A model generated the notes under the pieces. That model was not told where the DNA came from and searched no databases. It was given only the letters and a program-made list of their open reading frames with translations. From a virus, in the UHGV virus genome UHGV-0114643: 33,753 bases of DNA, one strand, 5' to 3'. Both the position numbers and the translations under genes were made by a program. The first letter of the stretch is position 1; every line of letters begins with the position of its first letter. Shown piece after piece: positions 8,938-19,696 of the stretch.

Positions 8938-9402
8938 CTATTTTGGATAAACAGCGTCAAGGTAAATCTTGGCTTCCAAACTACGTCTATTTTGTAGACC
9001 CTTGGAAGTTACTTTTTGACCATTCACTGTAATCTTGTTCCACCACTGCATAGCTTCTGCACAACCAGCTTTGTTACCAGCATTGTGACGCTTGATAAAA
9101 GTTGAATCCTGCATAGCACCGATACCAATGTTGTAAGTCTCTACAACAAGTGCGTCAAATTCGTTCTGCGTAGTCGGAACCTTAATTGCGCTGTTTACTG
9201 CACCTACATAACTTTCAACATCTGCAAGGAGATATTGAACAGCTTGTTCAGCAGTAATCTTCATCCCCATTGTTACAGGTCTTCCGTTGATACGGATTGT
9301 TCCATAACCAATTGTAGGGATTCCAGCAGAGTCTTTATAGGCTTCTAAGCGAAGCCCTTCAAAGAACTTAATGGCTTCTAAGCCTTTACTTGAGAGTTGC
9401 AT
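8938..9402 (-). CDS. GH24 (T4-type) lysozyme, ~154 aa; start moved from the track TTG (9408) to ATG 9402
   Basis: Translation contains FEGLRLEAYKDSAGIPTIGYG, matching the T4 lysozyme catalytic Glu/Asp/Thr region; AGGAGG 6 nt upstream of ATG. Confidence 0.8.
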   Translation of the reverse strand: MQLSSKGLEAIKFFEGLRLEAYKDSAGIPTIGYGTIRINGRPVTMGMKITAEQAVQYLLADVESYVGAVNSAIKVPTTQNEFDALVVETYNIGIGAMQDSTFIKRHNAGNKAGCAEAMQWWNKITVNGQKVTSKGLQNRRSLEAKIYLDAVYPK

Positions 9403-12355: not shown

Positions 12356-13771
12356 ATGAGCGAATTATTTAAACACTCGCATCTACATGCAGGTTTAACT
12401 GAAAACGGTGCTGTTAACCACACATCTTCAATGTCTGCACTGGTAGATTTCTACAAAGCTGCTGGTTCAAGCAGAACAAATGTAGAAGTTCTTCCAAACT
12501 TGTTTTACAAGGCAATGCGAGAAGATATTGATGTAGCAGTTCGAATCCTGTTACATATGCGAGATGCACGAGAAGGTATGGGTGAGCGTAAAGCGTTCCG
12601 TTATACTCTTACTAAAGCAATCTCTGACGGGATTCTTGATGAGTTTCAAGTATTACGTATCATGGACAAGATTTCTGATTTAGGTCGTTATGACGACTTT
12701 AAAATCTTTGTTGGTACACGTTACGAAACAGATGCTTTCAAGCATTTAGAATCGGCACTGTTAGACCCTGCAACATCGGCTCTGGCAGCAAAATGGTTAC
12801 CACGAGTAAAATCACGACACATGCGTTTTGTTCGTCGTTTCTGTAAGTTTGCAAATCTTTCAGAGAAGCAGTATCGAGTTCTTCTGTCAGCACTGTCTGA
12901 TACTGTTGAACAAAAGATTTCAGCAAACGAGTTTGGAGAGATTGATTACAGCAAGCTTCCTTCACTGGCTGCTGCACGTTATCAAAAACTCTTCAGTCGT
13001 AAAGATGGTGAGCGTTATGCAGCATACGTTACAGCACTGACTAAAGGTGAGACAAAGATTAATGCTGGTGCAGTCTACCCTTATGACATTACAAAGTCAG
13101 TCGGTTACGGTAATGCAACCGTTGCAAATGAGCAGTGGAAAGCTTTACCAAACTGGATGAAAGAGGGTGAAAACATTCTGTGCATGGCAGATGTATCTTC
13201 ATCTATGACTTGGGAGCGACATGGTTCTGTTACAGCGCTAGATATTGGTGTATCTTTAGCCCTGTACGTTTCAGAACGTAATACAGGTTGCTTTAAAGAT
13301 GAATTGATGGTTTACTCTAGCCGACCTCACTTCATCACATTGAGTGGTGATTTGCAGACTCGCTTACGACAAGTAAAGAGTCATGTAGAATATGGTTCAA
13401 CTGACCTACAAGCTGCTTTTGCAAGAATCCTTGAGATTGGTGTTAAAAACAACTTGACTCAGAAAGAGATGCCTAGTAAGCTTATCATCTTCTCTGATAT
13501 GCAGTTCAATCAGGTTGATGGAGCAGATGGTCGTACTAACTTTGAAGCAATTCAAGAAAAGTACAAGAAAGCTGGATATGAGATGCCACAACTGGTATTC
13601 TGGTACTTAGCAAACCGTAATGGTACTTGCGAAGTGTCTGTAAAGGATAACGGTGTAGCAATGGTATCTGGTTTCTCTCCAGCCACTTTAAAAGCTTTGC
13701 TTGGTGGTGAGAAGTTTGACCCTATCAGCGTAATGCTCAAAGCAGTAATGATTGAACGCTACGATTGGTAA
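12356..13771 (+). CDS. vWA-domain protein, 471 aa (helical N-terminal region + C-terminal von Willebrand A domain); possibly Ro60/TROVE-like or DUF2828-like
   Basis: MIDAS-like D-x-S-x-S in LCMADVSSSMTWE and beta-strand-like LIIFSDMQF seen in translation; fold family is inferred, not searched. Confidence 0.6.
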   Translation: MSELFKHSHLHAGLTENGAVNHTSSMSALVDFYKAAGSSRTNVEVLPNLFYKAMREDIDVAVRILLHMRDAREGMGERKAFRYTLTKAISDGILDEFQVLRIMDKISDLGRYDDFKIFVGTRYETDAFKHLESALLDPATSALAAKWLPRVKSRHMRFVRRFCKFANLSEKQYRVLLSALSDTVEQKISANEFGEIDYSKLPSLAAARYQKLFSRKDGERYAAYVTALTKGETKINAGAVYPYDITKSVGYGNATVANEQWKALPNWMKEGENILCMADVSSSMTWERHGSVTALDIGVSLALYVSERNTGCFKDELMVYSSRPHFITLSGDLQTRLRQVKSHVEYGSTDLQAAFARILEIGVKNNLTQKEMPSKLIIFSDMQFNQVDGADGRTNFEAIQEKYKKAGYEMPQLVFWYLANRNGTCEVSVKDNGVAMVSGFSPATLKALLGGEKFDPISVMLKAVMIERYDW

Positions 13772-13789
13772 AAAGTTTTAAAAAGGGTA

Positions 13790-13818
13790 TTGACAAAGTG
13801 TTTAATACCCTTTAATAT
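13790..13818 (+). promoter_or_regulatory. sigma70-like promoter (TTGACA-N17-TAATAT), overlapped by a 9-bp inverted repeat (AAGGGTATT / AATACCCTT)
   Basis: Consensus hexamers with canonical spacing, read directly. Confidence 0.5.
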
Positions 13819-13879
13819 GTTCTACATAGAAACGAAAAAGAAGTTTTCTGAAATAAATCAAATTATTTTAAAAAACCTC

Positions 13880-13909
13880 TTGACAGACACTAAAAAATAG
13901 TGTTATAGT
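13880..13909 (+). promoter_or_regulatory. sigma70-like promoter (TTGACA-N18-TATAGT) about 30 nt upstream of the first tRNA
   Basis: Consensus hexamers read directly. Confidence 0.5.
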
Positions 13910-13936
13910 TGTTACATAGGTTGTTAAAAAGATTAT

Positions 13937-14016
13937 CTCCGTTTAGCTCAGTTTGGTTTAGCAGCACTTGCTTTGGGAGCAAGGGGTCGAGGGTTCAAAT
14001 CCTTCAACGGAGACCA
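13937..14016 (+). tRNA. tRNA-Pro (anticodon TGG), CCA encoded
   Basis: 7-bp acceptor stem CTCCGTT/AACGGAG, T-arm GAGGG-TTCAAAT-CCTTC, anticodon loop TTTGGGA. Confidence 0.8.
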
Positions 14017-14022
14017 AATTAT

Positions 14023-14100
14023 ATTCCCGTAGACAAATTAGGTAAAGTCAACACCCTTTCAAGGTGTGGTTTGAGGGTTCAAGTCCCTTCGGGAATGCCA
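14023..14100 (+). tRNA. tRNA-Glu (anticodon TTC), CCA encoded
   Basis: Perfect acceptor stem ATTCCCG/CGGGAAT, T-arm, anticodon loop CTTTCAA. Confidence 0.85.
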
Positions 14101-14107
14101 GTTTTGA

Positions 14108-14177
14108 CAGAAGACCAATTACAGCAAACAAACTTTTCAATTTCGCGCATAGAAATCCAAAAAAGATTTGGTCTGGT
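14108..14177 (+). repeat. inter-tRNA element a (CAGAAGACC ... GGTCTGGT family); candidate small structured RNA
   Basis: Shares 5' (CAGAAGACC-N-ACAGCAA) and 3' (GGTCTGGT) ends with three other spacers; terminal 5-bp helix AGACC/GGTCT. Confidence 0.6.
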
Positions 14178-14187
14178 CATTAAGAAT

Positions 14188-14264
14188 TGCGGGTATAGAG
14201 AAAGGGTGTCTCACATGTCTCATTAGCATGTTATCGGTAGGTTCGACTCCTACACCCGCCTCCA
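14188..14264 (+). tRNA. tRNA with CAT anticodon (Met, fMet or Ile2), atypical (U1:C72 mismatch, U at position 37)
   Basis: Acceptor TGCGGGT/ACCCGCC, T-arm GTAGG-TTCGACT-CCTAC, anticodon arm CATGT-CTCATTA-GCATG, CCA encoded. Confidence 0.55.
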
Positions 14265-14270
14265 AATTTA

Positions 14271-14336
14271 CAGAAGACCGTTTACAGCAAACACTTAAAA
14301 TTTTTTATAGGAAAAAATGAAAAGATACGGTCTGGT
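14271..14336 (+). repeat. inter-tRNA element b (CAGAAGACC ... GGTCTGGT family)
   Basis: Direct repeat of the element termini. Confidence 0.6.
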
Positions 14337-14347
14337 AATACTAATAT

Positions 14348-14424
14348 GGTTAGGAAGCACATAAGGCATGTGCGGTCGGCTGTTAACCGAATGGTACAGG
14401 GTTCGAATCCCTGACTAACCGCCA
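14348..14424 (+). tRNA. tRNA-Asn (anticodon GTT)
   Basis: Acceptor GGTTAGG/ACTAACC, D-stem GCAC/GTGC, anticodon loop CTGTTAA, T-arm CAGGG-TTCGAAT-CCCTG, CCA encoded. Confidence 0.8.
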
Positions 14425-14493
14425 AGATTTGGGAGAGAAGTGATTGCTCACCGATTTGTAAGGTGCAAGTCCTTAGCCTGAATAGAATAAAAT

Positions 14494-14581
14494 GCGTCGT
14501 TATCCCGTAGATGGAAGCGGTGGTGACTGTAAATCACTTGTCATTATGACTCGGTAGGTTCGACTCCTTCACGGCGCACCA
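14494..14581 (+). tRNA. tRNA-Tyr (anticodon GTA), long variable arm
   Basis: Acceptor GCGTCGT/ACGGCGC, anticodon arm GGTGA-CTGTAAA-TCACT, variable-arm hairpin, T-arm, CCA encoded. Confidence 0.8.
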
Positions 14582-14587
14582 AATAAA

Positions 14588-14664
14588 GGTTATGTAGTTT
14601 AACTGGTCAAAATACCTCCCTGTCACGGAGGATGATGAGGGTTCGAATCCCTTCGTAACCGCCA
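14588..14664 (+). tRNA. tRNA-Asp (anticodon GTC)
   Basis: Acceptor GGTTATG/CGTAACC, D-stem GTTT/AAAT, anticodon arm CCTCC-CTGTCAC-GGAGG, T-arm GAGGG-TTCGAAT-CCCTT, CCA encoded. Confidence 0.85.
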
Positions 14665-14725
14665 AATTTGAGAGGGCTTGTTAGCCCCTCCCTTAAAGAG
14701 TTCTTACGAGTATTCTTTAAAGGAG

Positions 14726-14800
14726 CAGAAGACCAAATACAGCAAGCAATTTTAATATTTCAAGCCAATTTAATTTGAAAAATTTAAAACTTGGTCTGGT
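14726..14800 (+). repeat. inter-tRNA element c (CAGAAGACC ... GGTCTGGT family)
   Basis: Direct repeat of the element termini. Confidence 0.6.
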
Positions 14801-14813
14801 TCCAACAATTTTA

Positions 14814-14940
14814 CAGAAGACCGTTTACAGCAAACAATAAACAATCTATTTCTCTGGTAAAGAAAAGGCGAAGGTTCGATTCCTTCACACGTTACGGCGT
14901 GTTGGTGTAATGGAAGCACTTAAGATAAATACGGTCTGGT
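14814..14940 (+). repeat. inter-tRNA element d (127 nt) with internal T-arm mimic (GAAGG-TTCGATT-CCTTC) and D-arm-like hairpin; candidate Y-RNA-like ncRNA
   Basis: Same termini as a-c; tRNA-like motifs present but no acceptor stem pairing, so not a tRNA. Confidence 0.5.
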
Positions 14941-15089
14941 AATCCTCTTTGCAGTGACTTATGGAGCTAATATGTCGTCCCATGAGTGCCGATGAGTTTC
15001 TTGAGCATGATTCTAGATTAGCTTACTAAGAGACAACTCTACAAACCCTTTAGCAAGGTTTGCGTAGGTTACTGCAAAGATGATTTAAT

Positions 15090-15165
15090 GGAAGTGTAGC
15101 AGAATGGTGATGCGGCAGACTTTTAATCTGACAGGCGACGGGTTCGAATCCCTCCACTTCTACCA
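15090..15165 (+). tRNA. tRNA-Lys (anticodon TTT)
   Basis: Acceptor GGAAGTG/CACTTCT, anticodon loop CTTTTAA, T-loop GGGTTCGAATCCC, CCA encoded. Confidence 0.8.
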
Positions 15166-15246
15166 AATTCGCCCCTTAACTGAAGAACACATGCGCGGCT
15201 GGAAACACCCACTCAATCAGTTCTCTACAAAGGGGCAACTTATAAT

Positions 15247-15323
15247 GGTTCAGTCGCAGATAAGGTAATGCAAGGGTTTCATAAGCCCTATGAATGTGGG
15301 TTCGATTCCCACCTGAACCTCCA
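15247..15323 (+). tRNA. tRNA-Met (anticodon CAT; could be initiator or Ile2)
   Basis: Perfect acceptor GGTTCAG/CTGAACC, anticodon arm AGGGT-TTCATAA-GCCCT, T-arm GTGGG-TTCGATT-CCCAC, CCA encoded. Confidence 0.8.
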
Positions 15324-15325
15324 AT

Positions 15326-15400
15326 TGTGGGTTAGCATAAATGGTAATGCAAACGGCTGATAACCGTTAGAAGAGGGTTCGATACCCTCACCTACAACCA
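15326..15400 (+). tRNA. tRNA-Ile (anticodon GAT)
   Basis: Acceptor TGTGGGT/ACCTACA, D-stem GCAT/ATGC, anticodon arm AACGG-CTGATAA-CCGTT, T-arm GAGGG-TTCGATA-CCCTC, CCA encoded. Confidence 0.85.
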
Positions 15401-15414
15401 ATTTCATAAAGTTG

Positions 15415-15443
15415 TTGACATTCAGATGTGACCACTTTAAGAT
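15415..15443 (+). promoter_or_regulatory. internal promoter-like element (TTGACA-N17-TAAGAT) inside the tRNA array
   Basis: Exact -35, 17-nt spacer, 4/6 at -10. Confidence 0.35.
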
Positions 15444-15676
15444 AACCTTAGTTTTCGTTAGCGTAGCGTCTATTTTAAAAACTTAAAAATAAATGCAAAC
15501 GATAATGTTTTTCTGGCAGTAGCTTAATAGGCTAAACACCAGCAGGGTATTCCAACTCCCTGTTAAAGAATTTGGCGTACTAGCCCACGGTATGATTAAT
15601 AAAGTGGGCAATATTCTAAAGAGCATCCCTTAAGGGGCTTGGCTTAAATGCAATGAGTGCTCTTTAAAATATTAAT

Positions 15677-15752
15677 GCTCCGTTAGTCTAAAGGATAGGC
15701 AACTGTCTTCTAAACAGTTCATATATAGGTTCGAGTCCTATACGGAGTGCCA
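15677..15752 (+). tRNA. tRNA-Arg (anticodon TCT)
   Basis: Acceptor GCTCCGT/ACGGAGT, D-stem GTCT/AGGC, anticodon arm ACTGT-CTTCTAA-ACAGT, T-arm ATAGG-TTCGAGT-CCTAT, CCA encoded. Confidence 0.85.
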
Positions 15753-15813
15753 ATTCTAATGGTCAAGACAACACGAGTAAGTTATCTTAGATACGCGTTA
15801 AGAGATAAACGAA

Positions 15814-15881
15814 AGTCGGAAAGTTGCTGAAGGGTAGCTCCCTTCGATAGTAAGTAGGTTCGACTCCTACCTTGACTGCCA
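15814..15881 (+). tRNA. tRNA-like element, probably degenerate or interrupted (canonical T-arm and 3' end with CCA, but no D-arm; a perfect 5' acceptor partner GGTCAAG lies at 15761-15767)
   Basis: T-arm GTAGG-TTCGACT-CCTAC and 3' strand CTTGACT-G-CCA; only 65 nt from the nearest 5' partner, 118 nt from the perfect one. Confidence 0.3.
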
Positions 15882-16046
15882 AATAGTTAGCAGATTACTA
15901 CGACGACCTTTATGGGTCTCCGCATTGACTTGAAAGAGTCAATCTCATAAGGAGGTGGTCTGTATCTCATGTTTTCCAGAACATGTAAATAATCTGAGAA
16001 GAAGCTTGACAGTGTTGAGATAACAGGGTAAGCTTCGAAATATAGT

Positions 16047-16129
16047 ATGGGACGATGTTAAGACACTAAGGCATGTGCGTAAGCCTCCAAAACTTACTCA
16101 AAGGGGTTCGAATCCTCCGTCCCATGCCA
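16047..16129 (+). tRNA. atypical tRNA, candidate tRNA-Trp (CCA inside a 9-nt anticodon loop CCUCCAAAA; D region ~7 nt too long)
   Basis: Perfect acceptor ATGGGAC/GTCCCAT, T-loop GGGGTTCGAATCC, CCA encoded; Trp is the only amino acid otherwise missing from the array. Confidence 0.45.
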
Positions 16130-16142
16130 AAGTCTTATTAGG

Positions 16143-16230
16143 GGTAGGTAGCGGCTAATGGAAGCCAAACTGTCTTGAAAACAGTTGCCATTGTAGAGAT
16201 ACGGTGAGGGTTCGACTCCTTTATCTACCG
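16143..16230 (+). tRNA. tRNA-Ser (anticodon TGA), long variable arm; 3' CCA not encoded (CCT follows)
   Basis: Acceptor GGTAGGT/ATCTACC, anticodon arm ACTGT-CTTGAAA-ACAGT, 20-nt variable arm, T-arm GAGGG-TTCGACT-CCTTT. Confidence 0.75.
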
Positions 16231-16485
16231 CCTAATAAGATTTAAAGCTGAGACTCGCTGTTCGGGCAAGTGTTTCAGGTTTCCTCTTCGTGTATTGGCG
16301 TACACGGCACTGGTAAAACACCTAGTAGGTGTCACGGAGAAGAGATAGTATCAAGCTCTCCAAAGGTTCTAGTCACCGGATTAAACAAGACTATGCAAAG
16401 GCCAATAGGTCTTTTTAGAGAATTGTTAAGATGTTTAATACCATTGTTGCTTTGGTGTCTTAGCAGTTCTCTACAAAGATTTAAT

Positions 16486-16562
16486 GCACCTATAGCCCAA
16501 CTGGAAGAGGCAGCAGACTTAGAATCTGCTCAGTGTGAGTTCGAATCTCTCTAGGTGTACCA
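16486..16562 (+). tRNA. tRNA with Leu anticodon TAG, class-II-like D-arm but short variable loop
   Basis: Acceptor GCACCTA/TAGGTGT, anticodon arm GCAGA-CTTAGAA-TCTGC, discriminator A, CCA encoded. Confidence 0.7.
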
Positions 16563-16569
16563 AATTAAT

Positions 16570-16645
16570 GCAGGTGTAGCAAAATGGTTATGCGGCTGAC
16601 TCTTAATCAGTAAGACGATGGGTTCAATTCCCTCCACCTGTACCA
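16570..16645 (+). tRNA. tRNA-Lys (anticodon CTT)
   Basis: Acceptor GCAGGTG/CACCTGT, anticodon loop CTCTTAA, T-loop GGGTTCAATTCCC, CCA encoded. Confidence 0.8.
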
Positions 16646-16651
16646 AACAAT

Positions 16652-16727
16652 GGGGATGTAGTTTACATGGTTAAAACATAAGTTTTGCAAACTTAAGTAC
16701 AGGGTTCAATTCCCTGCTTCTCCACCA
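16652..16727 (+). tRNA. tRNA-Ala (anticodon TGC) with G3:U70 identity pair
   Basis: Acceptor GGGGATG/CTTCTCC, D-stem GTTT/AAAC, anticodon arm TAAGT-TTTGCAA-ACTTA, T-arm CAGGG-TTCAATT-CCCTG, CCA encoded. Confidence 0.85.
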
Positions 16728-16733
16728 ATTAGT

Positions 16734-16808
16734 GCATCCATAGTTTAAACGGGAAAATTACAGTCTTCCAAACTGAGGTTGAGGGTTCGATTCCCTCTGG
16801 ATGCTCCA
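16734..16808 (+). tRNA. tRNA-Gly (anticodon TCC)
   Basis: Perfect acceptor GCATCCA/TGGATGC, anticodon loop CTTCCAA, T-arm GAGGG-TTCGATT-CCCTC, CCA encoded. Confidence 0.85.
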
Positions 16809-16814
16809 AATAAT

Positions 16815-16890
16815 GCTCTTATCGTATAATTGGCTATTACGGTTGCCTTGTAAGCAACTTATCAGGGTTCGAATCCTTGTGGGAGCACCA
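16815..16890 (+). tRNA. tRNA-Thr (anticodon TGT)
   Basis: Acceptor GCTCTTA/TGGGAGC, anticodon arm GTTGC-CTTGTAA-GCAAC, T-arm CAGGG-TTCGAAT-CCTTG, CCA encoded. Confidence 0.85.
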
Positions 16891-16987
16891 ATTTTGAGGT
16901 CAAGTGAAAGACCGCTTGAGTCAACTGAAGACCGTAACAAATTCCACGGAGTTGAGTTAGCGGCACAGCTTCAGACCTCTTTTCAAA

Positions 16988-17062
16988 GCTCGCTTAGTTT
17001 ATATGGTAAAGCCCCATCCTTACAAGTTGGTGAAGAAGGTTCAAGTCCTTCAGCGAGTACCA
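16988..17062 (+). tRNA. tRNA-Val (anticodon TAC)
   Basis: Acceptor GCTCGCT/AGCGAGT, D-stem GTTT/AAGC, anticodon loop CTTACAA, T-arm GAAGG-TTCAAGT-CCTTC, CCA encoded. Confidence 0.75.
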
Positions 17063-17063
17063 A

Positions 17064-17141
17064 GTTCCAGTATCCCAATTGGCAGAGGATGCAAGCTCAA
17101 ACCTTGTATTAGTGACGGTTCGAATCCGTCTTGGAACACCA
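17064..17141 (+). tRNA. tRNA with Leu anticodon CAA, class-II-like D-arm (3-bp stem, CAATTGGCAGA loop) but short variable loop
   Basis: Acceptor GTTCCAG/TTGGAAC, anticodon arm GCAAG-CTCAAAC-CTTGT, T-arm GACGG-TTCGAAT-CCGTC, discriminator A, CCA encoded. Confidence 0.7.
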
Positions 17142-17156
17142 AATTAGGAGATTCCT

Positions 17157-17369
17157 ATGAAGCCTTATGGTAGACATGGTAAAGTTGAAATTGCAAGTTG
17201 TGGTTGCTGTGCTTCTCACGATGGTGAAGAAGATTACTACAAGTGGCGTACAGACCATCGTAAACGCTTTCTCAGAAGAGATAAGAAGAAAGCTAGACAG
17301 GAATCTCGAAAGAATATTGCAGAATTAGTTCAAATGGATAGAACAGCAATCTACGAAGTTGTTTGTTAG
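17157..17369 (+). CDS. small basic Cys-containing hypothetical protein, 70 aa; last ~17 codons overlap tRNA-Arg
   Basis: ATG with AGGAGA 7 nt upstream; ORF in track; overlap makes the true extent uncertain. Confidence 0.35.
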   Translation: MKPYGRHGKVEIASCGCCASHDGEEDYYKWRTDHRKRFLRRDKKKARQESRKNIAELVQMDRTAIYEVVC

Positions 17370-17395
17370 GGGTTCGAATCCCTTATTCTGCACCA
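17319..17395 (+). tRNA. tRNA-Arg (anticodon ACG)
   Basis: Perfect acceptor GCAGAAT/ATTCTGC, D-stem GTTC/GAAC, anticodon arm GCAAT-CTACGAA-GTTGT, T-arm AGGGG-TTCGAAT-CCCTT, CCA encoded. Confidence 0.8.
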
Positions 17396-17413
17396 ATTTT
17401 AGAAGGTAATTAT

Positions 17414-17641
17414 ATGCGTAAACTCATTATTGAAAGGCATAAAGATGCTGACAAGATTGAAACAACACAAGTTGGGGACACTGACTTCATTCTTGTAGGT
17501 TGGAAATGTGACCCAATAGCAGCTATGAAGGTTGTTCATGGTTTTGCAGGAATTGAATTTAATCAAATCATATTTGAAACGCTATTACCAGAAAATCAGG
17601 ATACGTGTAATAACGCATATGTCCTGACAAGAGTTCGTTAG
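17414..17641 (+). CDS. hypothetical protein, 75 aa (paralogue A: MRKLIIERH ... DTCNNAYVLTRVR); start moved to the ATG with a proper RBS
   Basis: About 60% identical to 17686..17913; AGAAGG upstream of ATG. Confidence 0.5.
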   Translation: MRKLIIERHKDADKIETTQVGDTDFILVGWKCDPIAAMKVVHGFAGIEFNQIIFETLLPENQDTCNNAYVLTRVR

Positions 17642-17667
17642 GGGTTCGAATCCCTTATTCTGCACCA
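17633..17667 (+). pseudogene. tRNA 3' fragment (T-arm + acceptor 3' strand + CCA), identical to the 3' end of tRNA-Arg(ACG); duplication scar
   Basis: 30 of 31 nt identical to 17365-17395; no complementary 5' acceptor strand or D-arm upstream. Confidence 0.55.
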
Positions 17668-17685
17668 AATTTAAAAGGGTAACTT

Positions 17686-17913
17686 ATGTTTAAACTCATA
17701 GTTGAAAAACACCCAGAAGATGACAAGCTTGAAACAGGGAGATTTGGAGATACTTTCTTTATCAGAGTTGGCTGGAAAGCTGACCCATTAGAAGTTAGAA
17801 AGATTGTCTACAACTTTGCTGGTTTGGAATTAAAGCAAGTCATCTTTGAAACAATGTTGCCAGAAAATAAAGATACATGCAATAACGCATATATTCTTAC
17901 AAGAGTTAGTTAG
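17686..17913 (+). CDS. hypothetical protein, 75 aa (paralogue B: MFKLIVEKH ... DTCNNAYILTRVS)
   Basis: ORF in track; AAGGG upstream; paralogous to 17414..17641. Confidence 0.5.
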   Translation: MFKLIVEKHPEDDKLETGRFGDTFFIRVGWKADPLEVRKIVYNFAGLELKQVIFETMLPENKDTCNNAYILTRVS

Positions 17914-17987
17914 GGGATTAGTTTACAAGGTTAAAACCTCGGTCTTTGAAATCGAAGAAGTTGGTTCAATTCCAACATCCCCCGCCA
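17912..17987 (+). tRNA. tRNA-Gln (anticodon TTG); starts inside the stop codon of the preceding ORF
   Basis: Acceptor AGGGGAT/ATCCCCC (A1:C72), D-stem GTTT/AAAC, anticodon arm TCGGT-CTTTGAA-ATCGA, T-arm GTTGG-TTCAATT-CCAAC, CCA encoded. Confidence 0.8.
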
Positions 17988-17989
17988 AT

Positions 17990-18068
17990 GCTCCATTACT
18001 CCAATTGGCAGAGAGGCCAGACTTAAAATCTGTGTTATGTATCGGTTCGAATCCGATATGGAGTACCA
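17990..18068 (+). tRNA. tRNA with Leu anticodon TAA, class-II-like D-arm but short variable loop
   Basis: Perfect acceptor GCTCCAT/ATGGAGT, D-arm CTC-CAATTGGCA-GAG, anticodon arm CCAGA-CTTAAAA-TCTGT, T-arm ATCGG-TTCGAAT-CCGAT, discriminator A, CCA encoded. Confidence 0.7.
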
Positions 18069-18074
18069 AATATT

Positions 18075-18150
18075 AGCAGTGTAGCATAACTGGCAATGCT
18101 CCAGCCTCTGAAGCTGAATGATTAAGGTTCAAATCCTTACGCTGCTGCCA
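18075..18150 (+). tRNA. tRNA-Gln (anticodon CTG)
   Basis: Acceptor AGCAGTG/CGCTGCT, D-stem GCAT/ATGC, anticodon loop CTCTGAA, T-arm TAAGG-TTCAAAT-CCTTA, CCA encoded. Confidence 0.8.
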
Positions 18151-18181
18151 CTTCTAAGGGTTCTTACGAGAGTCCTTAAAT

Positions 18182-18255
18182 GTGGCCTTATCATAAATGG
18201 ACAATGACCCATGCTGTGAACATGGTCTATACGGGTTCGATTCCCGTAGGTCACC
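18182..18255 (+). tRNA. tRNA-His (anticodon GTG); 3' tail reads C-CCCCA rather than N-CCA and no obvious G-1
   Basis: Acceptor GTGGCCT/AGGTCAC, perfect D-stem TCAT/ATGA, anticodon arm CCATG-CTGTGAA-CATGG, T-arm ACGGG-TTCGATT-CCCGT. Confidence 0.7.
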
Positions 18256-18267
18256 CCCCAATTCAAT

Positions 18268-18343
18268 AGCTCAATTAGCTTATATGGTTAAAGCGCGTGT
18301 CTGAAAAACATGAGAACAGGGTTCAAATCCCGATGGGCTACCA
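18268..18343 (+). tRNA. tRNA-Phe (anticodon GAA), acceptor/T-stem register ambiguous
   Basis: D-stem GCTT/AAGC, anticodon arm CGTGT-CTGAAAA-ACATG, T-loop GGGTTCAAATCCC, 3' ...ACCA. Confidence 0.6.
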
Positions 18344-18359
18344 ATTTTATAGGTGCATA

Positions 18360-19094
18360 ATGAAAGAGATGACAGAACAAGGTAAAGAGATTTTTGGTCT
18401 CCTTAAATCTGGTAACGGGTTCTCTAACCCTCTTATTACTGGTGCAGCAGTTCTTGGTGGTACTGTAGCTGCCTCTCAATCATTAGTTAACTCAATTAGT
18501 TCTGTAACAGACCCAGCTACACAACAGATTTTAGTTGCTGCTGGACTGACAACAGCCTTATTAGGAAGCTTCACAACAAGCCTTGGAAGGACAACTTCAA
18601 CGACAAGTACACTCACTGAGTATGGACAAAAGTCTGTAGATGAGTTTTCACAACGTATGCAAGTAGCTAAGGGTTACTCTAATGTTATGGGAGCAGCAGG
18701 TGAACAGGTTGGATGTACACCGTTTAGTGGTATCATGGGCGTAGCTACCGAGTACGGTAATAAAGCGATGGATTTGATTAATACCTCCATAGACGCTGTA
18801 AATAGCGTTCTAAGCGATTTGCAAGATGCAATCGACCAAGGACTAGATACAATCTCTGAACTCGCTACACAGGCCGTTACAGCGATTAATGAGGGTATTG
18901 CAAAGATTACTGCATATGCTAATGAAGTAACTCAGATGATTGCAGATGAAGCAGCACTGATTGCAGAATACCTGAAAACAAATATTAATGGTTTCCTTGC
19001 GAATGTTCTACCAAGCTGGTTTGATGATTCATGTAAAACTGGTGTGATTGACACTATCGCAACTCCAGAGATGAAAGAAGCTCTGAACAAATAA
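18360..19094 (+). CDS. hypothetical protein (~244 aa), Ala/Thr/Ser/Gly-rich with hydrophobic N-terminal segment; start moved downstream of the tRNA
   Basis: Track ORF began inside tRNA-Phe; ATG at 18360 has AGGTG upstream. Confidence 0.5.
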   Translation: MKEMTEQGKEIFGLLKSGNGFSNPLITGAAVLGGTVAASQSLVNSISSVTDPATQQILVAAGLTTALLGSFTTSLGRTTSTTSTLTEYGQKSVDEFSQRMQVAKGYSNVMGAAGEQVGCTPFSGIMGVATEYGNKAMDLINTSIDAVNSVLSDLQDAIDQGLDTISELATQAVTAINEGIAKITAYANEVTQMIADEAALIAEYLKTNINGFLANVLPSWFDDSCKTGVIDTIATPEMKEALNK

Positions 19095-19095
19095 C

Positions 19096-19188
19096 GGAAG
19101 ATTAACCCTAAAAGGTAAGGGAGCAGTTTGCTAAACTGCCAGTAACCGAGAAATCGGCGTACCAGTTCAAGTCTGGTATCTTCCTCCA
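19096..19188 (+). tRNA. tRNA-Ser (anticodon GCT), long variable arm
   Basis: Perfect acceptor GGAAGAT/ATCTTCC, 3-bp D-stem, anticodon arm GCAGT-TTGCTAA-ACTGC, T-arm ACCAG-TTCAAGT-CTGGT, CCA encoded. Confidence 0.8.
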
Positions 19189-19194
19189 AATTAT

Positions 19195-19270
19195 GTGTCG
19201 GTGTCAGAAATGGTTATGTCCCTGTCTGCAAAACAGGTTTATGAGGGTTCGAGTCCCTTCCGATACTCCA
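19195..19270 (+). tRNA. tRNA-Cys (anticodon GCA)
   Basis: Acceptor GTGTCGG/CCGATAC, anticodon arm CCTGT-CTGCAAA-ACAGG, T-arm GAGGG-TTCGAGT-CCCTT, CCA encoded. Confidence 0.8.
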
Positions 19271-19302
19271 ATTTATATTAATATCTCTCTCAAAGTTATT
19301 AT

Positions 19303-19362
19303 GCCCTGCTATGAGTATTCTCCCTTTCGCTACCGGAGAGTATTTTTAGACAGGGCTTTTTT
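19303..19362 (+). terminator. compound stem-loop plus T6 terminator at the end of the tRNA array
   Basis: GCCCTG ... CAGGGC outer stem with inner hairpin, followed by TTTTTT. Confidence 0.5.
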
Positions 19363-19427
19363 ATAGAGTTATACTTTATGGGAAGACCTATACAGTATGT
19401 CTCTGGCATACATTGTGGTTTCTCCTT

Positions 19428-19451
19428 GACGGTCTCTGCACCGTCTTTTTT
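19428..19451 (+). terminator. rho-independent terminator (GACGG-TCTCTGCA-CCGTC + TTTTTT)
   Basis: Perfect 5-bp GC-rich inverted repeat followed by T6, 40 nt before the next gene. Confidence 0.65.
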
Positions 19452-19489
19452 CAGGAGAATCACTATAACTTTAATTTTGGAGAAATACA

Positions 19490-19696
19490 ATGAACGAGAC
19501 TAATGTTTACAAAGAACTATATGAAACTCAGAAACAGGCTCAAATGCTTCAAGCAACTGTAATGGCTGTGGCTGAACGTTTAATTGTTGCAACTGGTATT
19601 AACCCACAGGAAGCAACGATGGATAAACTTCTTAATTTAGTAGATGAAAAGTTTGGTGTAGAACCTAAACAGGAATCTGAAGAAGTTTCTGAATAA
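19490..19696 (+). CDS. hypothetical protein, 68 aa, acidic C-terminus
   Basis: ORF in track; GGAGAAA upstream of ATG. Confidence 0.5.
   Translation: MNETNVYKELYETQKQAQMLQATVMAVAERLIVATGINPQEATMDKLLNLVDEKFGVEPKQESEEVSE

What the first reader, a model, noticed from the sequence alone, without database searches (positions are those of the whole stretch)
14946..15080. Structured non-coding spacers closed by long-range stems inside the tRNA array
Spacer 14946-15080 is closed by a 9-bp helix (CTTTGCAGT / ACTGCAAAG) around ~115 nt. Spacer 15171-15238 is closed by GCCCCTT / AAGGGGC around ~52 nt. Spacer 16893-16978 is closed by GAGGTC / GACCTC with a nested CTGAAG / CTTCAG helix and a T-run. None contains an ORF or tRNA, so they are candidate small RNAs co-transcribed with the tRNAs.
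Basis: seen in the sequence. Interest (0 to 1): 0.45.

Follow-up and report, generated by a model that had tools for sequence, protein, structure and literature searches.

The report
Conserved structured RNAs in phage tRNA array
The three flagged gaps between tRNA genes of this Felix O1-like phage hold real, conserved folded RNAs. They sit in a locus that also encodes a Ro60-like RNA-binding protein and four unannotated Y-RNA-like partners, so the RNA partners of a known anti-defence protein can now be tested directly.

Summary
The window comes from a Mooglevirus (a Felix O1-like myovirus). All three closing helices are at the stated coordinates.

- **S1 (14946-15080)** is a genuine structured RNA. 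It folds with z = -5.2. Across 20 distinct orthologues, 97.8% of pair cells are kept and 30 of 39 pairs change on both sides.
- **S2 (15171-15236)** is a tRNA-sized hairpin with an invariant 19-nt core and compensatory stem changes. It also occurs in tRNA arrays of unrelated ~148-kb phages.
- **S3 (16896-16979)** is about 94% conserved and has one compensatory change in a 121-kb phage contig.

None of the three matches an Rfam family, a tRNA or a terminator.

The ORF just upstream (12356-13771) is a Ro60/TROVE structural homologue. The array also holds four Y-RNA-like elements (E1-E4: a 7-bp terminal stem followed by NN-ACAGCAA). E4 carries a permuted tRNA-like module like that of YrlA. The same elements flank Ro-like genes in phages of Listeria, Staphylococcus, Campylobacter, Mycobacterium and Bacillus. 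A relative with no Ro-like gene lacks E, S1 and S3.

S1-S3 are not members of that family. Expression and function are untested.

The parts
14946..15080 (+). S1, a ~135-nt structured RNA. P1 is an 18-bp terminal helix (14946-14963 with 15063-15080). P3 pairs 14996-15002 with 15028-15034 and encloses hairpin 15004-15023, whose loop region carries the UCUAGA palindrome. The terminal hairpin pairs 15042-15047 with 15057-15062 and has the conserved 9-nt loop CUUUAGCAA (15048-15056).
   Evidence: Fold z = -5.2. Orthologues fold with z = -5.1, -4.3 and -5.4. Within the closest type, 100% of cells are paired and 4 pairs change on both sides. Across 20 distinct sequences, 97.8% are paired and 30 of 39 pairs change on both sides, against 29-46% paired for slid controls. 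Covariance model R1 finds it only in Ounavirinae-like loci, always just 5' of tRNA-Lys(UUU).
15171..15236 (+). S2, a 66-nt hairpin. P1 pairs 15171-15177 with 15230-15236. P2 pairs 15182-15188 with 15220-15225 and has one bulged A. The invariant apical core CGCGGCUGGAAACACCCAC lies at 15194-15212.
   Evidence: z = -3.7. Orthologues fold with z = -4.2 and -4.2 and the same architecture. P1 changes from GCCCCUU/AAGGGGC to ACCCUU/AAGGGU. P2 variants GAAGAAU/AUUCUUC, GAGAAAC/GUUUCUC and AAGAAC/GUUCUU all stay paired. It is present or absent among close relatives, and it occurs between other tRNAs in ~148-kb phage contigs L048 and L050.
16896..16979 (+). S3, an 84-nt long irregular hairpin. The outer helix pairs 16896-16901 with 16974-16979. 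The minimum-energy fold predicts inner helices CCGCU/AGCGG, UCAACU/AGUUGA and CCGU/ACGG. A run of 2-4 U follows.
   Evidence: z = -2.6. It is 94% identical to the Felix type, as conserved as the tRNAs. Variation falls in the internal loop or is G-U compatible. The homologue in 121-kb phage contig L079 has a compensatory outer helix AGAUGUC/GACAUCU. The terminator scan does not call it.
12356..13771 (+). Context: Ro60/TROVE-like RNA-binding protein (471 aa; DUF2828 + DUF7788/vWA), immediately upstream of the array.
   Evidence: Pfam. PHROG 850 'RNA-binding protein'. AlphaFold model with pLDDT 89.9. The top 12 Foldseek PDB hits are all Ro60/TROVE, E = 1e-8 to 2e-6, the best being Thermus phage phiLo Ro60. 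The Bas63 orthologue gp130 is described as Ro60-like and as a counter to the Ppl defence system (PMC11482910).
14112..14174 (+). E1, a Y-RNA-like element of the short (YrlB-like) type: stem AGACCAA/UUGGUCU, then UU-ACAGCAA, then an AU-rich variable region.
   Evidence: R2 scores 46.6 bits, but E1 was in the training set.
14275..14333 (+). E2, a Y-RNA-like element of the short type: stem AGACCGU/ACGGUCU, then UU-ACAGCAA.
   Evidence: Sub-threshold Rfam hit to RF01414 Dicty_Class_I_RNA, 25.7 bits.
14730..14797 (+). E3, a Y-RNA-like element of the short type: stem AGACCAA/UUGGUCU, then AU-ACAGCAA.
14818..14937 (+). E4, a YrlA-like Y RNA. It has the same stem and UU-ACAGCAA frame, enclosing a permuted tRNA-like module: a V-like hairpin, T-arm GAAGG-UUCGAUU-CCUUC, closed 'acceptor' hairpin ACACG/CGUGU and D-arm GGUGUAAUGGAAGCAC. 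It abuts S1.
   Evidence: The fold shows the four hairpins. The Rfam tRNA model scores 28.8 bits, just under its threshold of 29. The same arrangement occurs in Felix (with compensatory ACUCG/CGAGU), L041, L043, L048, a mycobacteriophage and a Bacillus phage.
15090..15165 (+). tRNA-Lys(UUU). S1 always lies directly 5' of it. RNase P cleavage here would set the 3' end of S1 (inferred).
13880..13909 (+). Promoter-like site for the array: TTGACA, 18-nt spacer, TG-n-TATAGT; 11 of 12 hexamer positions match.
   Evidence: This is a consensus match only.
19428..19445 (+). Terminator-like hairpin with a T-run, after the last tRNA.
   Evidence: This is a consensus match only.

Best explanation
**Proposed mechanism**
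S1, S2 and S3 are independently folding RNA modules within the tRNA operon transcript of an Ounavirinae phage. The transcript probably runs from the promoter near 13880 to the terminator near 19430.

The tRNA-processing enzymes that release the neighbouring tRNAs would free these modules. RNase P would act at the 5' end of the downstream tRNA, and RNase E, Z or exonucleases at the 3' end of the upstream element. Each terminal helix joins the 5' and 3' ends, which would protect the fragment from exonucleases, so each should accumulate as a small stable RNA. The precedent is the two stable RNAs of the T4 tRNA cluster.

**Context**
The three modules belong to a larger non-coding set built around a phage Ro60 homologue (12356-13771) and its four Y-RNA-like partners (E1-E4).

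**What each module looks like**
- S1 is the clearest case. It has an 18-bp terminal helix and a multi-branch core, and it presents a conserved 9-nt loop, CUU(A/U)AGCAA. This loop resembles the single-stranded (U)UACAGCAA motif of the E elements. I infer that S1 works in trans as a protein-bound RNA, with the Ro-like protein the most likely partner.
- S2 is a portable, tRNA-sized minihelix with an invariant loop. It moves between phage tRNA arrays.
- S3 is a long, nearly invariant hairpin.

**Shown versus inferred**
- Shown: the structures, their conservation and covariation, the strand, the genomic association, and the Ro60 fold of the neighbouring protein.
- Inferred: excision, stability, protein binding and function.
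For: **Structure and stability**
- The three helices are more stable than shuffled controls in the window.
- The S1 and S2 orthologues are more stable than shuffled controls too.

**Covariation**
- S1.
- S2: compensatory changes in P1 and P2 and an invariant core across four phage groups.
- S3: 94% conserved, with a compensatory outer helix in L079.

**Pattern of divergence**
S1 is only 55% identical between the window and the Felix type, while its neighbours are 87% and 99% identical. Its length and fold are nonetheless kept.

**Strand**
S1 and S3 are tied to the + strand by G-U pairs that would become A-C mismatches on the other strand. Model R1 scores 167 bits on + and 21 bits on -.

**Ro60 context**
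- Fold match to Ro60.
- 35 of 65 plus-strand ACAGCAA sites carry a 7-bp stem at the exact offset. None of 10 minus-strand sites does, and shuffles predict 2.9.
- Such elements were found in 15 of the 16 representative loci scanned. They lie next to the Ro-like gene or in the adjoining tRNA array in phages of Listeria, Staphylococcus, Enterococcus, Campylobacter, Mycobacterium and Bacillus.

**Co-absence**
Erwinia phage phiEa21-4, from the same subfamily, has no Ro-like gene, no E elements, no S1 and no S3.
Against: - No transcript, end-mapping or binding data exist for this phage group.
- S1-S3 lack the ACAGCAA-next-to-stem signature and the tRNA-like module. The E-family model does not hit them.
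- S3 also occurs in a 121-kb phage contig whose 5.8-kb fetched locus has no Ro-like gene. S2 occurs in L050 with no Ro-like gene in the fetched 14 kb. Any link to Ro is therefore not obligatory, as far as the fetched DNA shows.
- S3 has almost no informative variation, and its homologue in that 121-kb contig is not more stable than shuffles (z = -1.3).
- The S1 count uses an alignment fitted to the model, which leans towards the structure.
- The co-absence test rests on a single lineage.
Confidence: 0.6

Rival explanations
1. The spacers are processing or folding signals that act in cis. The long helices would be RNase III or RNase E entry sites, or insulators that keep neighbouring tRNAs and Y-like RNAs from misfolding. 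The excised pieces would have no function of their own.
For: All three sit exactly between processed RNAs. The S1 helix of 18-20 bp and the ~30-bp irregular duplex of S3 are of the length RNase III uses (my own knowledge of rRNA and T7 processing sites). S2 and S3 occur between different tRNA pairs in other phages, as portable spacers would.
Against: A cleavage site needs only a duplex. S1 also keeps an internal helix (P3) by covariation and a conserved 9-nt loop across very divergent relatives. S2 keeps a 19-nt invariant apical core while its stems vary. Most tRNA junctions in the same array are only 1-7 nt, so no spacer structure is needed for processing.
Confidence: 0.25
2. The spacers are decayed tRNA genes, or scars left by mobile elements such as homing-endonuclease or intron insertions, which are common in this array. 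They would be drifting without function.
For: The array does contain tRNA-like relics and HNH-endonuclease insertions in relatives. S2 is tRNA-sized with a 7-bp GC-rich closing helix. S2 is present or absent among close relatives.
Against: There is no T-loop, D-loop or anticodon arm, and neither ARAGORN nor Rfam calls a tRNA. Neutral relics would not show compensatory changes, a 19-nt invariant core shared by unrelated phages, or 94% identity for S3.
Confidence: 0.06
3. The elements act at the DNA level, for example as protein-binding palindromes, recombination hot-spots for shuffling array modules, or transcription terminators or attenuators.
For: S1 contains the palindrome TCTAGA (ACTAGT in L040). 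S1 types and S2 do not follow phage phylogeny, which implies module exchange. S3 is followed by a short T-run.
Against: Pairing relies on G-U pairs that exist on one strand only. The terminator scan does not call S3, and its T-run shrinks to 2 nt in Sf17. Long-range helices spanning 50-115 nt are not DNA-protein sites.
Confidence: 0.04

Closest known systems
Bacterial and phage Y RNAs (YrlA, YrlB, Yrn1; phiLo Yrl1 and Yrl2), the partners of Ro60/Rsr
   Same: S1-S3 are encoded within 1.2-3.2 kb of a Ro60 homologue on the same strand. Each is closed by a helix that joins its 5' and 3' ends, as in Y RNAs (PMC4201824; PMC12135203). The neighbouring E1-E4 fit the family closely: a terminal stem, a conserved single-stranded motif next to the 5' strand, and in E4 the V-T-AS-D permuted tRNA-like module that defines YrlA.
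   Different: S1-S3 have neither the motif next to the stem nor a tRNA-like module. The phage E motif is NN-ACAGCAA rather than the bacterial GNCGAA(N)G. The Rfam YrlA model does not reach its threshold anywhere in the window. Binding to the Ro-like protein is untested.
Stable RNAs 'species 1' and 'species 2' (rnaC, rnaD) of the phage T4 tRNA cluster (my own knowledge; not examined here)
   Same: They are non-tRNA small RNAs encoded among phage tRNA genes, co-transcribed with them and released by the tRNA-processing machinery. Their function is still unknown.
   Different: I did not compare sequences or structures. T4 has no Ro60 homologue that I know of.
Large ornate phage-associated RNAs next to tRNA clusters (ROOL, GOLLD)
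   Same: They are structured non-coding RNAs that lodge in or beside phage tRNA arrays. A ROOL-like RNA lies 1 kb upstream of the Ro-like gene of Listeria phage P100 (86 bits against a threshold of 99).
   Different: They are 500-800 nt long. S1-S3 are 66-135 nt and do not match those models.
Dictyostelid Class I RNAs (Rfam RF01414). This applies to E1-E4, not to S1-S3.
   Same: Both have a short stem joining the ends that begins with G, a conserved motif (CC)UUACAGCAA directly after the 5' strand, a variable AU-rich remainder, a length of about 60 nt, and a 3' C followed by UG(U) (PMC7919456).
   Different: Scores are below threshold: 25.7 and 17.6 bits against 41.5. Elements from other phages do not hit the model at E <= 5. 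The host kingdom, the promoter and the known binding protein (the RRM protein CIBP) all differ. The resemblance may be chance or convergence.

Membership tests
Y RNA (YrlA/YrlB type), tested on S1, S2 and S3 | A terminal helix formed by the 5' and 3' ends of the RNA | tested here: met
Y RNA (YrlA/YrlB type), tested on S1, S2 and S3 | A conserved Ro-binding motif beside the 5' strand of the stem: GNCGAA(N)G in bacteria, NN-ACAGCAA in this phage clade | tested here: not met
   E-family model R2 gives no hit in 14946-15080, 15171-15238 or 16893-16978. GCCGAAG occurs in the S1 of Sf17 only and is not conserved. The S1 loop CUU(A/U)AGCAA only resembles the motif.
Y RNA (YrlA/YrlB type), tested on S1, S2 and S3 | A tRNA-like T / closed-acceptor / D module (YrlA only) | tested here: not met
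   No T-loop sequence lies inside S1-S3, and there is no tRNA or YrlA hit.
Y RNA (YrlA/YrlB type), tested on S1, S2 and S3 | Encoded near a Ro60 orthologue | tested here: met
   The Ro60-fold protein lies at 12356-13771. Chen et al. used a 4-kb criterion (PMC4201824).
Y RNA (YrlA/YrlB type), tested on S1, S2 and S3 | Physical binding to Ro60 | not testable with these tools
   This needs RIP, CLIP or EMSA.
Y RNA, tested on E1-E4 (neighbouring elements, not part of the finding) | Terminal stem, adjacent conserved motif, proximity to a Ro60 gene and, for E4, a permuted tRNA-like module | tested here: met
   The same frame surrounds the tRNA-like (YrlA-like) element of a mycobacteriophage.
tRNA or pseudo-tRNA | A cloverleaf with T-loop and D-loop that ARAGORN or Rfam RF00005 can detect | tested here: not met
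Intrinsic terminator (S3) | A compact GC-rich hairpin with a 3-8-nt loop, followed by at least 5 T in 8 nt | tested here: not met
   The scan does not call it. The T-run is 2-4 nt and varies between relatives.
Any Rfam 15 family | A score at or above the family's gathering threshold | tested here: not met
   Only chance-level hits fall in S1-S3.
T4 tRNA-cluster stable RNAs (species 1 and 2) | Similarity of sequence or structure to rnaC or rnaD | not tested
   I did not fetch the T4 region. The analogy rests on my own knowledge.

The most novel reading that the evidence does not exclude
The phage tRNA array would be a cassette of RNA ligands for the Ro60-like anti-defence protein. E1-E4, and S1 with its look-alike loop CUU(A/U)AGCAA, would all bind it. 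The 'stem + ACAGCAA' family found next to DUF2828-type Ro proteins in phages of Proteobacteria, Firmicutes, Actinobacteria and Campylobacter would be evolutionarily or mechanistically the same thing as the Dictyostelium Class I RNAs. Those RNAs are currently thought to be unique to social amoebae. On this reading they would be Y-RNA-like partners of a TROVE/DUF2828-type protein. One Class I pull-down protein, DDB_G0281243, is of unknown function.
Probability: 0.1. Interest if true: 0.85.

Novelty: new member of a known kind. Interest (0 to 1): 0.6.

Why it matters
**For Felix O1-like phages**
These phages are used for typing and therapy, yet about a third of their 5.5-kb tRNA region is unannotated spacer.

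- At least three spacers are conserved structured RNAs, and four more are Y-RNA-like.
- This gives concrete candidates for the RNA partners of the Ro60-like protein.
- That protein was reported in Bas63 to counter the Ppl defence system. The authors could only guess that "some tRNA genes are possibly Y RNAs" (PMC11482910).
- The partners can now be tested with Northern blots, RIP-seq and defined deletions.

**For phage Ro proteins generally**
The 'stem + ACAGCAA' signature is a simple search key for Y-like RNAs of the DUF2828 branch of Ro proteins. That branch gave tblastn matches in 705 phage records.

**For the biology of tRNA arrays**
S2 and S3 show that small RNA modules, not only tRNAs, are exchanged between the tRNA arrays of unrelated phages.

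Tried and rejected
**Database searches that found nothing relevant**
- Rfam in E-value mode over 13500-19500 and over 14790-15090 gave nothing credible for S1-S3. The TtnuCD25, queA and Plastid hits are chance or tRNA mimicry.
- The YrlA model's only hit spans the tandem His-Phe tRNAs. This is the false-positive type that Chen et al. describe.
- PDB sequence searches with the Ro-like protein were not significant (E about 1). The fold search was needed.
- The S2 core 18-mer in 596 Gb of bacterial genomes gave 24 scattered hits, which is about the chance expectation. S2 is therefore not a mimic of a conserved bacterial RNA.
- S1 hairpin-loop look-alikes were not found in other Ro-bearing phage lineages.
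- The AlphaFold-database fold search, meant to ask whether Dictyostelium has a DUF2828/Ro-like protein, was unavailable. A paper search for DDB_G0281243 gave nothing further.

**Readings considered and dropped**
- Small-protein reading: the 22-codon frame in S1 is not conserved in the Felix type.
- S3 as a terminator.

**Methods that needed a workaround**
- MAFFT misplaced gaps in the S1 loop, the S2 3' strand and the 5' end of S3 from L079. I used a model-guided alignment for S1 and hand or RNAfold comparison for S2 and S3.
- My first loose E-element scan (6-bp stem, any offset) gave chance hits inside genes. I replaced it with a strict scan that has controls.

**A link I could not make**
I could not equate the three highly transcribed regions of Listeria phage CKA15 with E elements. 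One of them may be the ROOL-like RNA.

Full report
**Source of the window**

The region 13800-17200 is 98% identical to Citrobacter phage BSwM KMM2 and 93-96% identical to Shigella phages Sf13-Sf19 and Citrobacter phages Moogle and Mordin. All of these belong to Mooglevirus, subfamily Ounavirinae, the Felix O1-like myoviruses. ARAGORN finds 25 tRNA genes on the + strand between 13937 and 19270. In the annotated relatives nothing but tRNAs and a few small ORFs is marked in this region, and the three flagged spacers are blank. A strong promoter-like site lies just upstream of the first tRNA (13880-13909, 11 of 12 hexamer matches plus an extended -10). A terminator-like hairpin follows the last tRNA (19428-19445).

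**Checking the observation**

- All three closing helices are at the stated positions.
- S1 (14946-15080) folds to -45.3 kcal/mol, against -29.2 +/- 3.1 for shuffles (z = -5.2).
- S2 (15171-15238) has z = -3.7, and S3 (16893-16978) has z = -2.6.
- The S1 helix is really 18 bp long.
- None of the three is a tRNA or matches an Rfam family.

**S1 is a real structured RNA**

The spacer between tRNA-Asp and tRNA-Lys(UUU) keeps its length (422-459 nt) across Mooglevirus and Felixounavirus. The last ~135 nt exist in at least three sequence types:
- the window (M) type, also found in Suspvirus and in two phages classified as Felixounavirus;
- the Felix (F) type;
- the type in a metagenomic relative, L040, whose Ro-like protein is 63% identical.

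Identity between the window and Felix is only 55% in S1, while the elements on either side are 87% and 99% identical. All types nevertheless fold into the same frame, with z = -5.1, -4.3 and -5.4. That frame is a long terminal helix, a central multi-branch region, and a final hairpin whose 9-nt loop reads C(C)UU(A/U)AGCAA.

The stem of that final hairpin differs in every lineage and always pairs:

| Lineage | Stem |
|---|---|
| window | CAAACC/GGUUUG |
| Felix | CAGAC/GUCUG |
| L040 | CAGUC/GACUG |
| L041 | CUGUUC/GAACGG |
| L042 | AAGUC/GACUU |
| L043 | AGAGAC/GUCUCU |

Covariation counts:
- Among the nine closely related M-type sequences, nearly all variable positions fall in helices. All 351 pair cells stay paired, and four pairs change on both sides. 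Three of those are in an internal helix, 14996-15002 with 15028-15034, that the minimum-energy fold of the window sequence alone misses.
- A covariance model built from those nine sequences finds the F type (39-43 bits), L042 (35), L040 (30) and L041 (26), and nothing else.
- On the resulting alignment of 20 distinct sequences, 97.8% of cells are paired, against 80.7% for shuffled partners and 29-46% for slid partners. Thirty of 39 pairs change on both sides.
- That alignment is fitted to the model, so the numbers lean towards the structure. The hand-read compensatory changes and the unfitted M-type alignment point the same way.

Two further points. G-U pairs, and the 167-bit against 21-bit difference between strands, place the RNA on the tRNA sense strand. 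S1 is always directly 5' of tRNA-Lys(UUU), even where the gene order differs.

**S2 is a portable, tRNA-sized hairpin**

- Its 19-nt apical core, CGCGGCUGGAAACACCCAC, is invariant in every copy.
- The closing helix changes from GCCCCUU/AAGGGGC to GCCCUU/AAGGGC and ACCCUU/AAGGGU.
- The second helix changes among GA(A)GAAC/GUUCUC, GAAGAAU/AUUCUUC, GAGAAAC/GUUUCUC and AAGAAC/GUUCUU.
- Orthologues fold with the same architecture, z = -4.2.
- Close relatives lack it: Moogle itself, SUSP2 and most Felixounaviruses. One Felixounavirus carries the L040 version.
- It also sits between other tRNAs, in the tRNA sense, in two unrelated phage contigs of about 148 kb. One of these, L048, also has a Ro-like gene (46% identical) followed by E-type elements.
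- The core is not a conserved bacterial sequence.

The evidence is real but rests on four or five independent versions.

**S3 is conserved but poorly informative**

- It is 94% identical between the window and Felix, as conserved as the tRNAs.
- Changes fall in an internal loop or give G-U pairs. Three single changes break a pair.
- A homologue in a 121-kb phage contig (L079) has the outer helix AGAUGUC/GACAUCU in place of GAGGUC/GACCUC, plus two G-U-compatible changes. Its overall fold is not more stable than shuffles (z = -1.3).
It costs 4-11 kcal/mol and is broken in L079.
- S3 is not called as a terminator, and its T-run varies from 2 to 4 nt.

The 471-aa ORF immediately upstream of the array (12356-13771) carries DUF2828 and DUF7788. 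A confident AlphaFold model (pLDDT 89.9) matches only Ro60/TROVE proteins at the top of a PDB fold search. These include Thermus phage phiLo Ro60, Xenopus and human Ro60, and Deinococcus Rsr, with E = 1e-8 to 2e-6.

Ro60 proteins bind Y RNAs. Those RNAs have a stem formed by their two ends and, in bacteria, a permuted tRNA-like domain (PMC4201824; PMC12135203). A 2024 preprint reports that the Bas63 orthologue (gp130) is Ro60-like and counters the Ppl defence system. It guesses that some of the downstream 'tRNAs' are Y RNAs, without identifying any (PMC11482910).

The array contains four copies of a repeat (14112-14174, 14275-14333, 14730-14797, 14818-14937). Each consists of:
- a 7-bp stem (AGACCAA/UUGGUCU or AGACCGU/ACGGUCU);
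- then two nucleotides and ACAGCAA;
- then a variable AU-rich stretch;
- then the 3' strand of the stem, followed by GGU.

The fourth copy, which abuts S1, encloses a V-like hairpin, a T-arm (GAAGG-UUCGAUU-CCUUC), a closed 'acceptor' hairpin and a D-arm, in that order. This is the arrangement that defines YrlA.

The same frame (7-bp stem, NN, ACAGCAA) occurs on the coding strand of the Ro-like gene, within the 10-15-kb loci fetched around it. It lies beside the gene or in the adjoining tRNA array in phages of Listeria, Enterococcus, Staphylococcus, Campylobacter, Mycobacterium and Bacillus, and in several metagenomic contigs. A different stem sequence is used each time.

Controls:
- In a strict scan of 16 representative loci, 35 of 65 plus-strand ACAGCAA sites have the stem at the exact offset. 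None of 10 minus-strand sites does, and shuffled downstream sequence predicts 2.9 (maximum 7).
- A covariance model of the short form finds untrained copies in SUSP2, JLBYU32 and L048, and none in a phage without the gene.
- The long, tRNA-like form recurs in Felix (with a compensatory change in the acceptor hairpin), L041, L043, L048, a mycobacteriophage and a Bacillus phage.

I therefore regard E1-E4 as the Y RNAs of this phage. No Rfam family reached its gathering score on these elements, and I found no paper that reports them.

**How S1-S3 relate to the Y-like elements**

They are not members of that family. The E model does not hit them. They have no tRNA-like module and no ACAGCAA next to the stem.

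There are three points of contact:
- They share the general design of a helix that joins the ends.
- The S1 loop CUU(A/U)AGCAA, placed directly after the 5' strand of a helix, resembles the E motif (U)UACAGCAA.
- Erwinia phage phiEa21-4, an Ounavirinae member whose whole genome has no Ro-like gene, has a compact tRNA array without E elements, without S1 and without S3.

That co-absence is one lineage only. Against an obligatory link, S2 and S3 also occur in phage contigs where the fetched DNA shows no Ro-like gene.

**Most likely mechanism**

S1-S3 are cut out of the tRNA operon transcript by the enzymes that mature the flanking tRNAs. Their terminal helices protect them from exonucleases, as with the two stable RNAs of the T4 tRNA cluster (my own knowledge). 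S1, and perhaps the other two, then act in trans as protein-bound RNAs, with the Ro-like protein the leading candidate partner.

My estimates that each is a functional RNA element are about 0.9 for S1, 0.75 for S2 and 0.65 for S3. I put discrete stable RNAs, rather than purely cis-acting signals, at about 0.5-0.6.

The main rival is a role in processing or insulation only (0.25). It is weakened by the conserved loops and internal helices, and by the fact that most junctions in the array need only 1-7 nt. Decayed tRNAs or mobile-element scars (0.06) and DNA-level elements (0.04) fit the covariation and strand asymmetry poorly.

**Novelty and verdict**

Structured small RNAs inside phage tRNA clusters, and Y RNAs next to phage Ro genes, are known kinds. 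S1, S2 and S3 matched no Rfam family, are unannotated in the related records I examined, and are not mentioned in the Felix O1 genome paper. So they are new members of a known kind.

The more striking by-product is the 'stem + ACAGCAA' Y-like family and its resemblance to the Dictyostelium Class I RNAs. These share the same architecture and the (CC)UUACAGCAA motif. The Rfam hits are sub-threshold at 25.7 and 17.6 bits, and the dictyostelid family is described as unique to that group (PMC7919456). Elements from other phages do not hit the Rfam model. I therefore treat this as a low-probability lead, not a finding.

Noticed in passing
window 14112-14174, 14275-14333, 14730-14797, 14818-14937; also L028 6676-6894, L033 3614-3878, L035 5496-5703, L036 3823-3973, L038 5448-5704, L039 2206-3483, L048 6780-7058(-): A widespread, apparently undescribed family of Y-RNA-like elements: a 7-bp terminal stem, then NN-ACAGCAA, then a variable region. 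They lie next to DUF2828-type Ro60-like genes in phages of at least four bacterial phyla. Long versions enclose a permuted tRNA-like module (YrlA-like).
   Followed up: yes
window 14276-14334 and 14819-14938: Sub-threshold Rfam hits to Dictyostelium Class I RNA (RF01414; 25.7 and 17.6 bits against a threshold of 41.5). The architecture and the motif UUACAGCAA beside the 5' stem strand are shared. Class I RNAs are reported as unique to dictyostelids. One of their pull-down proteins (DDB_G0281243) has no known function.
   Followed up: partly
window 12356-13771: The ORF annotated as hypothetical in the two related records examined is a Ro60/TROVE + vWA structural homologue. tblastn finds homologues in 705 phage records. 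In Listeria phage CKA15 the homologue was detected in virions (PMC12282133).
   Followed up: yes
window 16049-16133: An uncalled tRNA-like element with a 7-bp acceptor stem (UGGGACG/CGUCCCA), a T-arm with UUCGAAU and a 3' CCA, but an anticodon-like arm with a 9-nt loop (GUAAG-CCUCCAAAA-CUUAC). It is 85-100% conserved in 22 related loci. ARAGORN and the Rfam tRNA model both miss it.
   Followed up: partly
window 15762-15884: A 123-nt tRNA-like element with acceptor stem GGUCAAG/CUUGACU, T-arm GUAGG-UUCGACU-CCUAC and a 3' CCA, plus about 50 nt of extra hairpins where the D-arm should be. It was found only in Mooglevirus loci.
   Followed up: no
window 14494-14581: A tRNA-Tyr(GUA) that tRNAscan-SE annotates in Sf17 and that is called a pseudo-tRNA in Felix O1. 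ARAGORN does not call it here, and Rfam scores it at 22.8 bits.
   Followed up: no
window 17361-17632 and 17633-17904 (with 17319-17395): A 272-nt tandem duplication (74% identity). Each copy starts with a tRNA-Arg 3'-half-like sequence (GGGGTTCGAATCCCTTATTCTGCACCA) followed by a paralogous 75-aa ORF. The full tRNA-Arg(ACG) at 17319-17395 overlaps the end of a 70-aa ORF. It looks like small ORFs inserted repeatedly into, or duplicated together with, a tRNA 3' half.
   Followed up: no
window 14425-14493, 14665-14726, 15401-15676, 16233-16485: The other spacers of the array are also 76-95% identical to Felix O1-type phages. That is too conserved for junk. 15415-15443 carries a second promoter-like site. 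14668-14726 holds two small hairpins. None was analysed for structure.
   Followed up: no
window 15010-15019 (S1); L040 about 9345-9354: The centre of S1 carries a palindrome containing CTAG: ATTCTAGATT in the window and Felix types, ATACTAGTAT in L040. If exposed in a loop it could mediate RNA dimerisation. This was not tested.
   Followed up: no
L033 2420-2971 (Listeria phage P100): A ROOL-like large RNA (86 bits, E = 6e-16, just under the gathering score of 99) lies between tRNA genes about 1 kb upstream of the Ro-like gene. It may be one of the 'highly transcribed non-coding regions' reported for the related phage CKA15.
   Followed up: no
L026 9116-9241: One E-type element encloses a tRNA-like insert in the normal (D, anticodon-like, T) order rather than the permuted order.
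   Followed up: no
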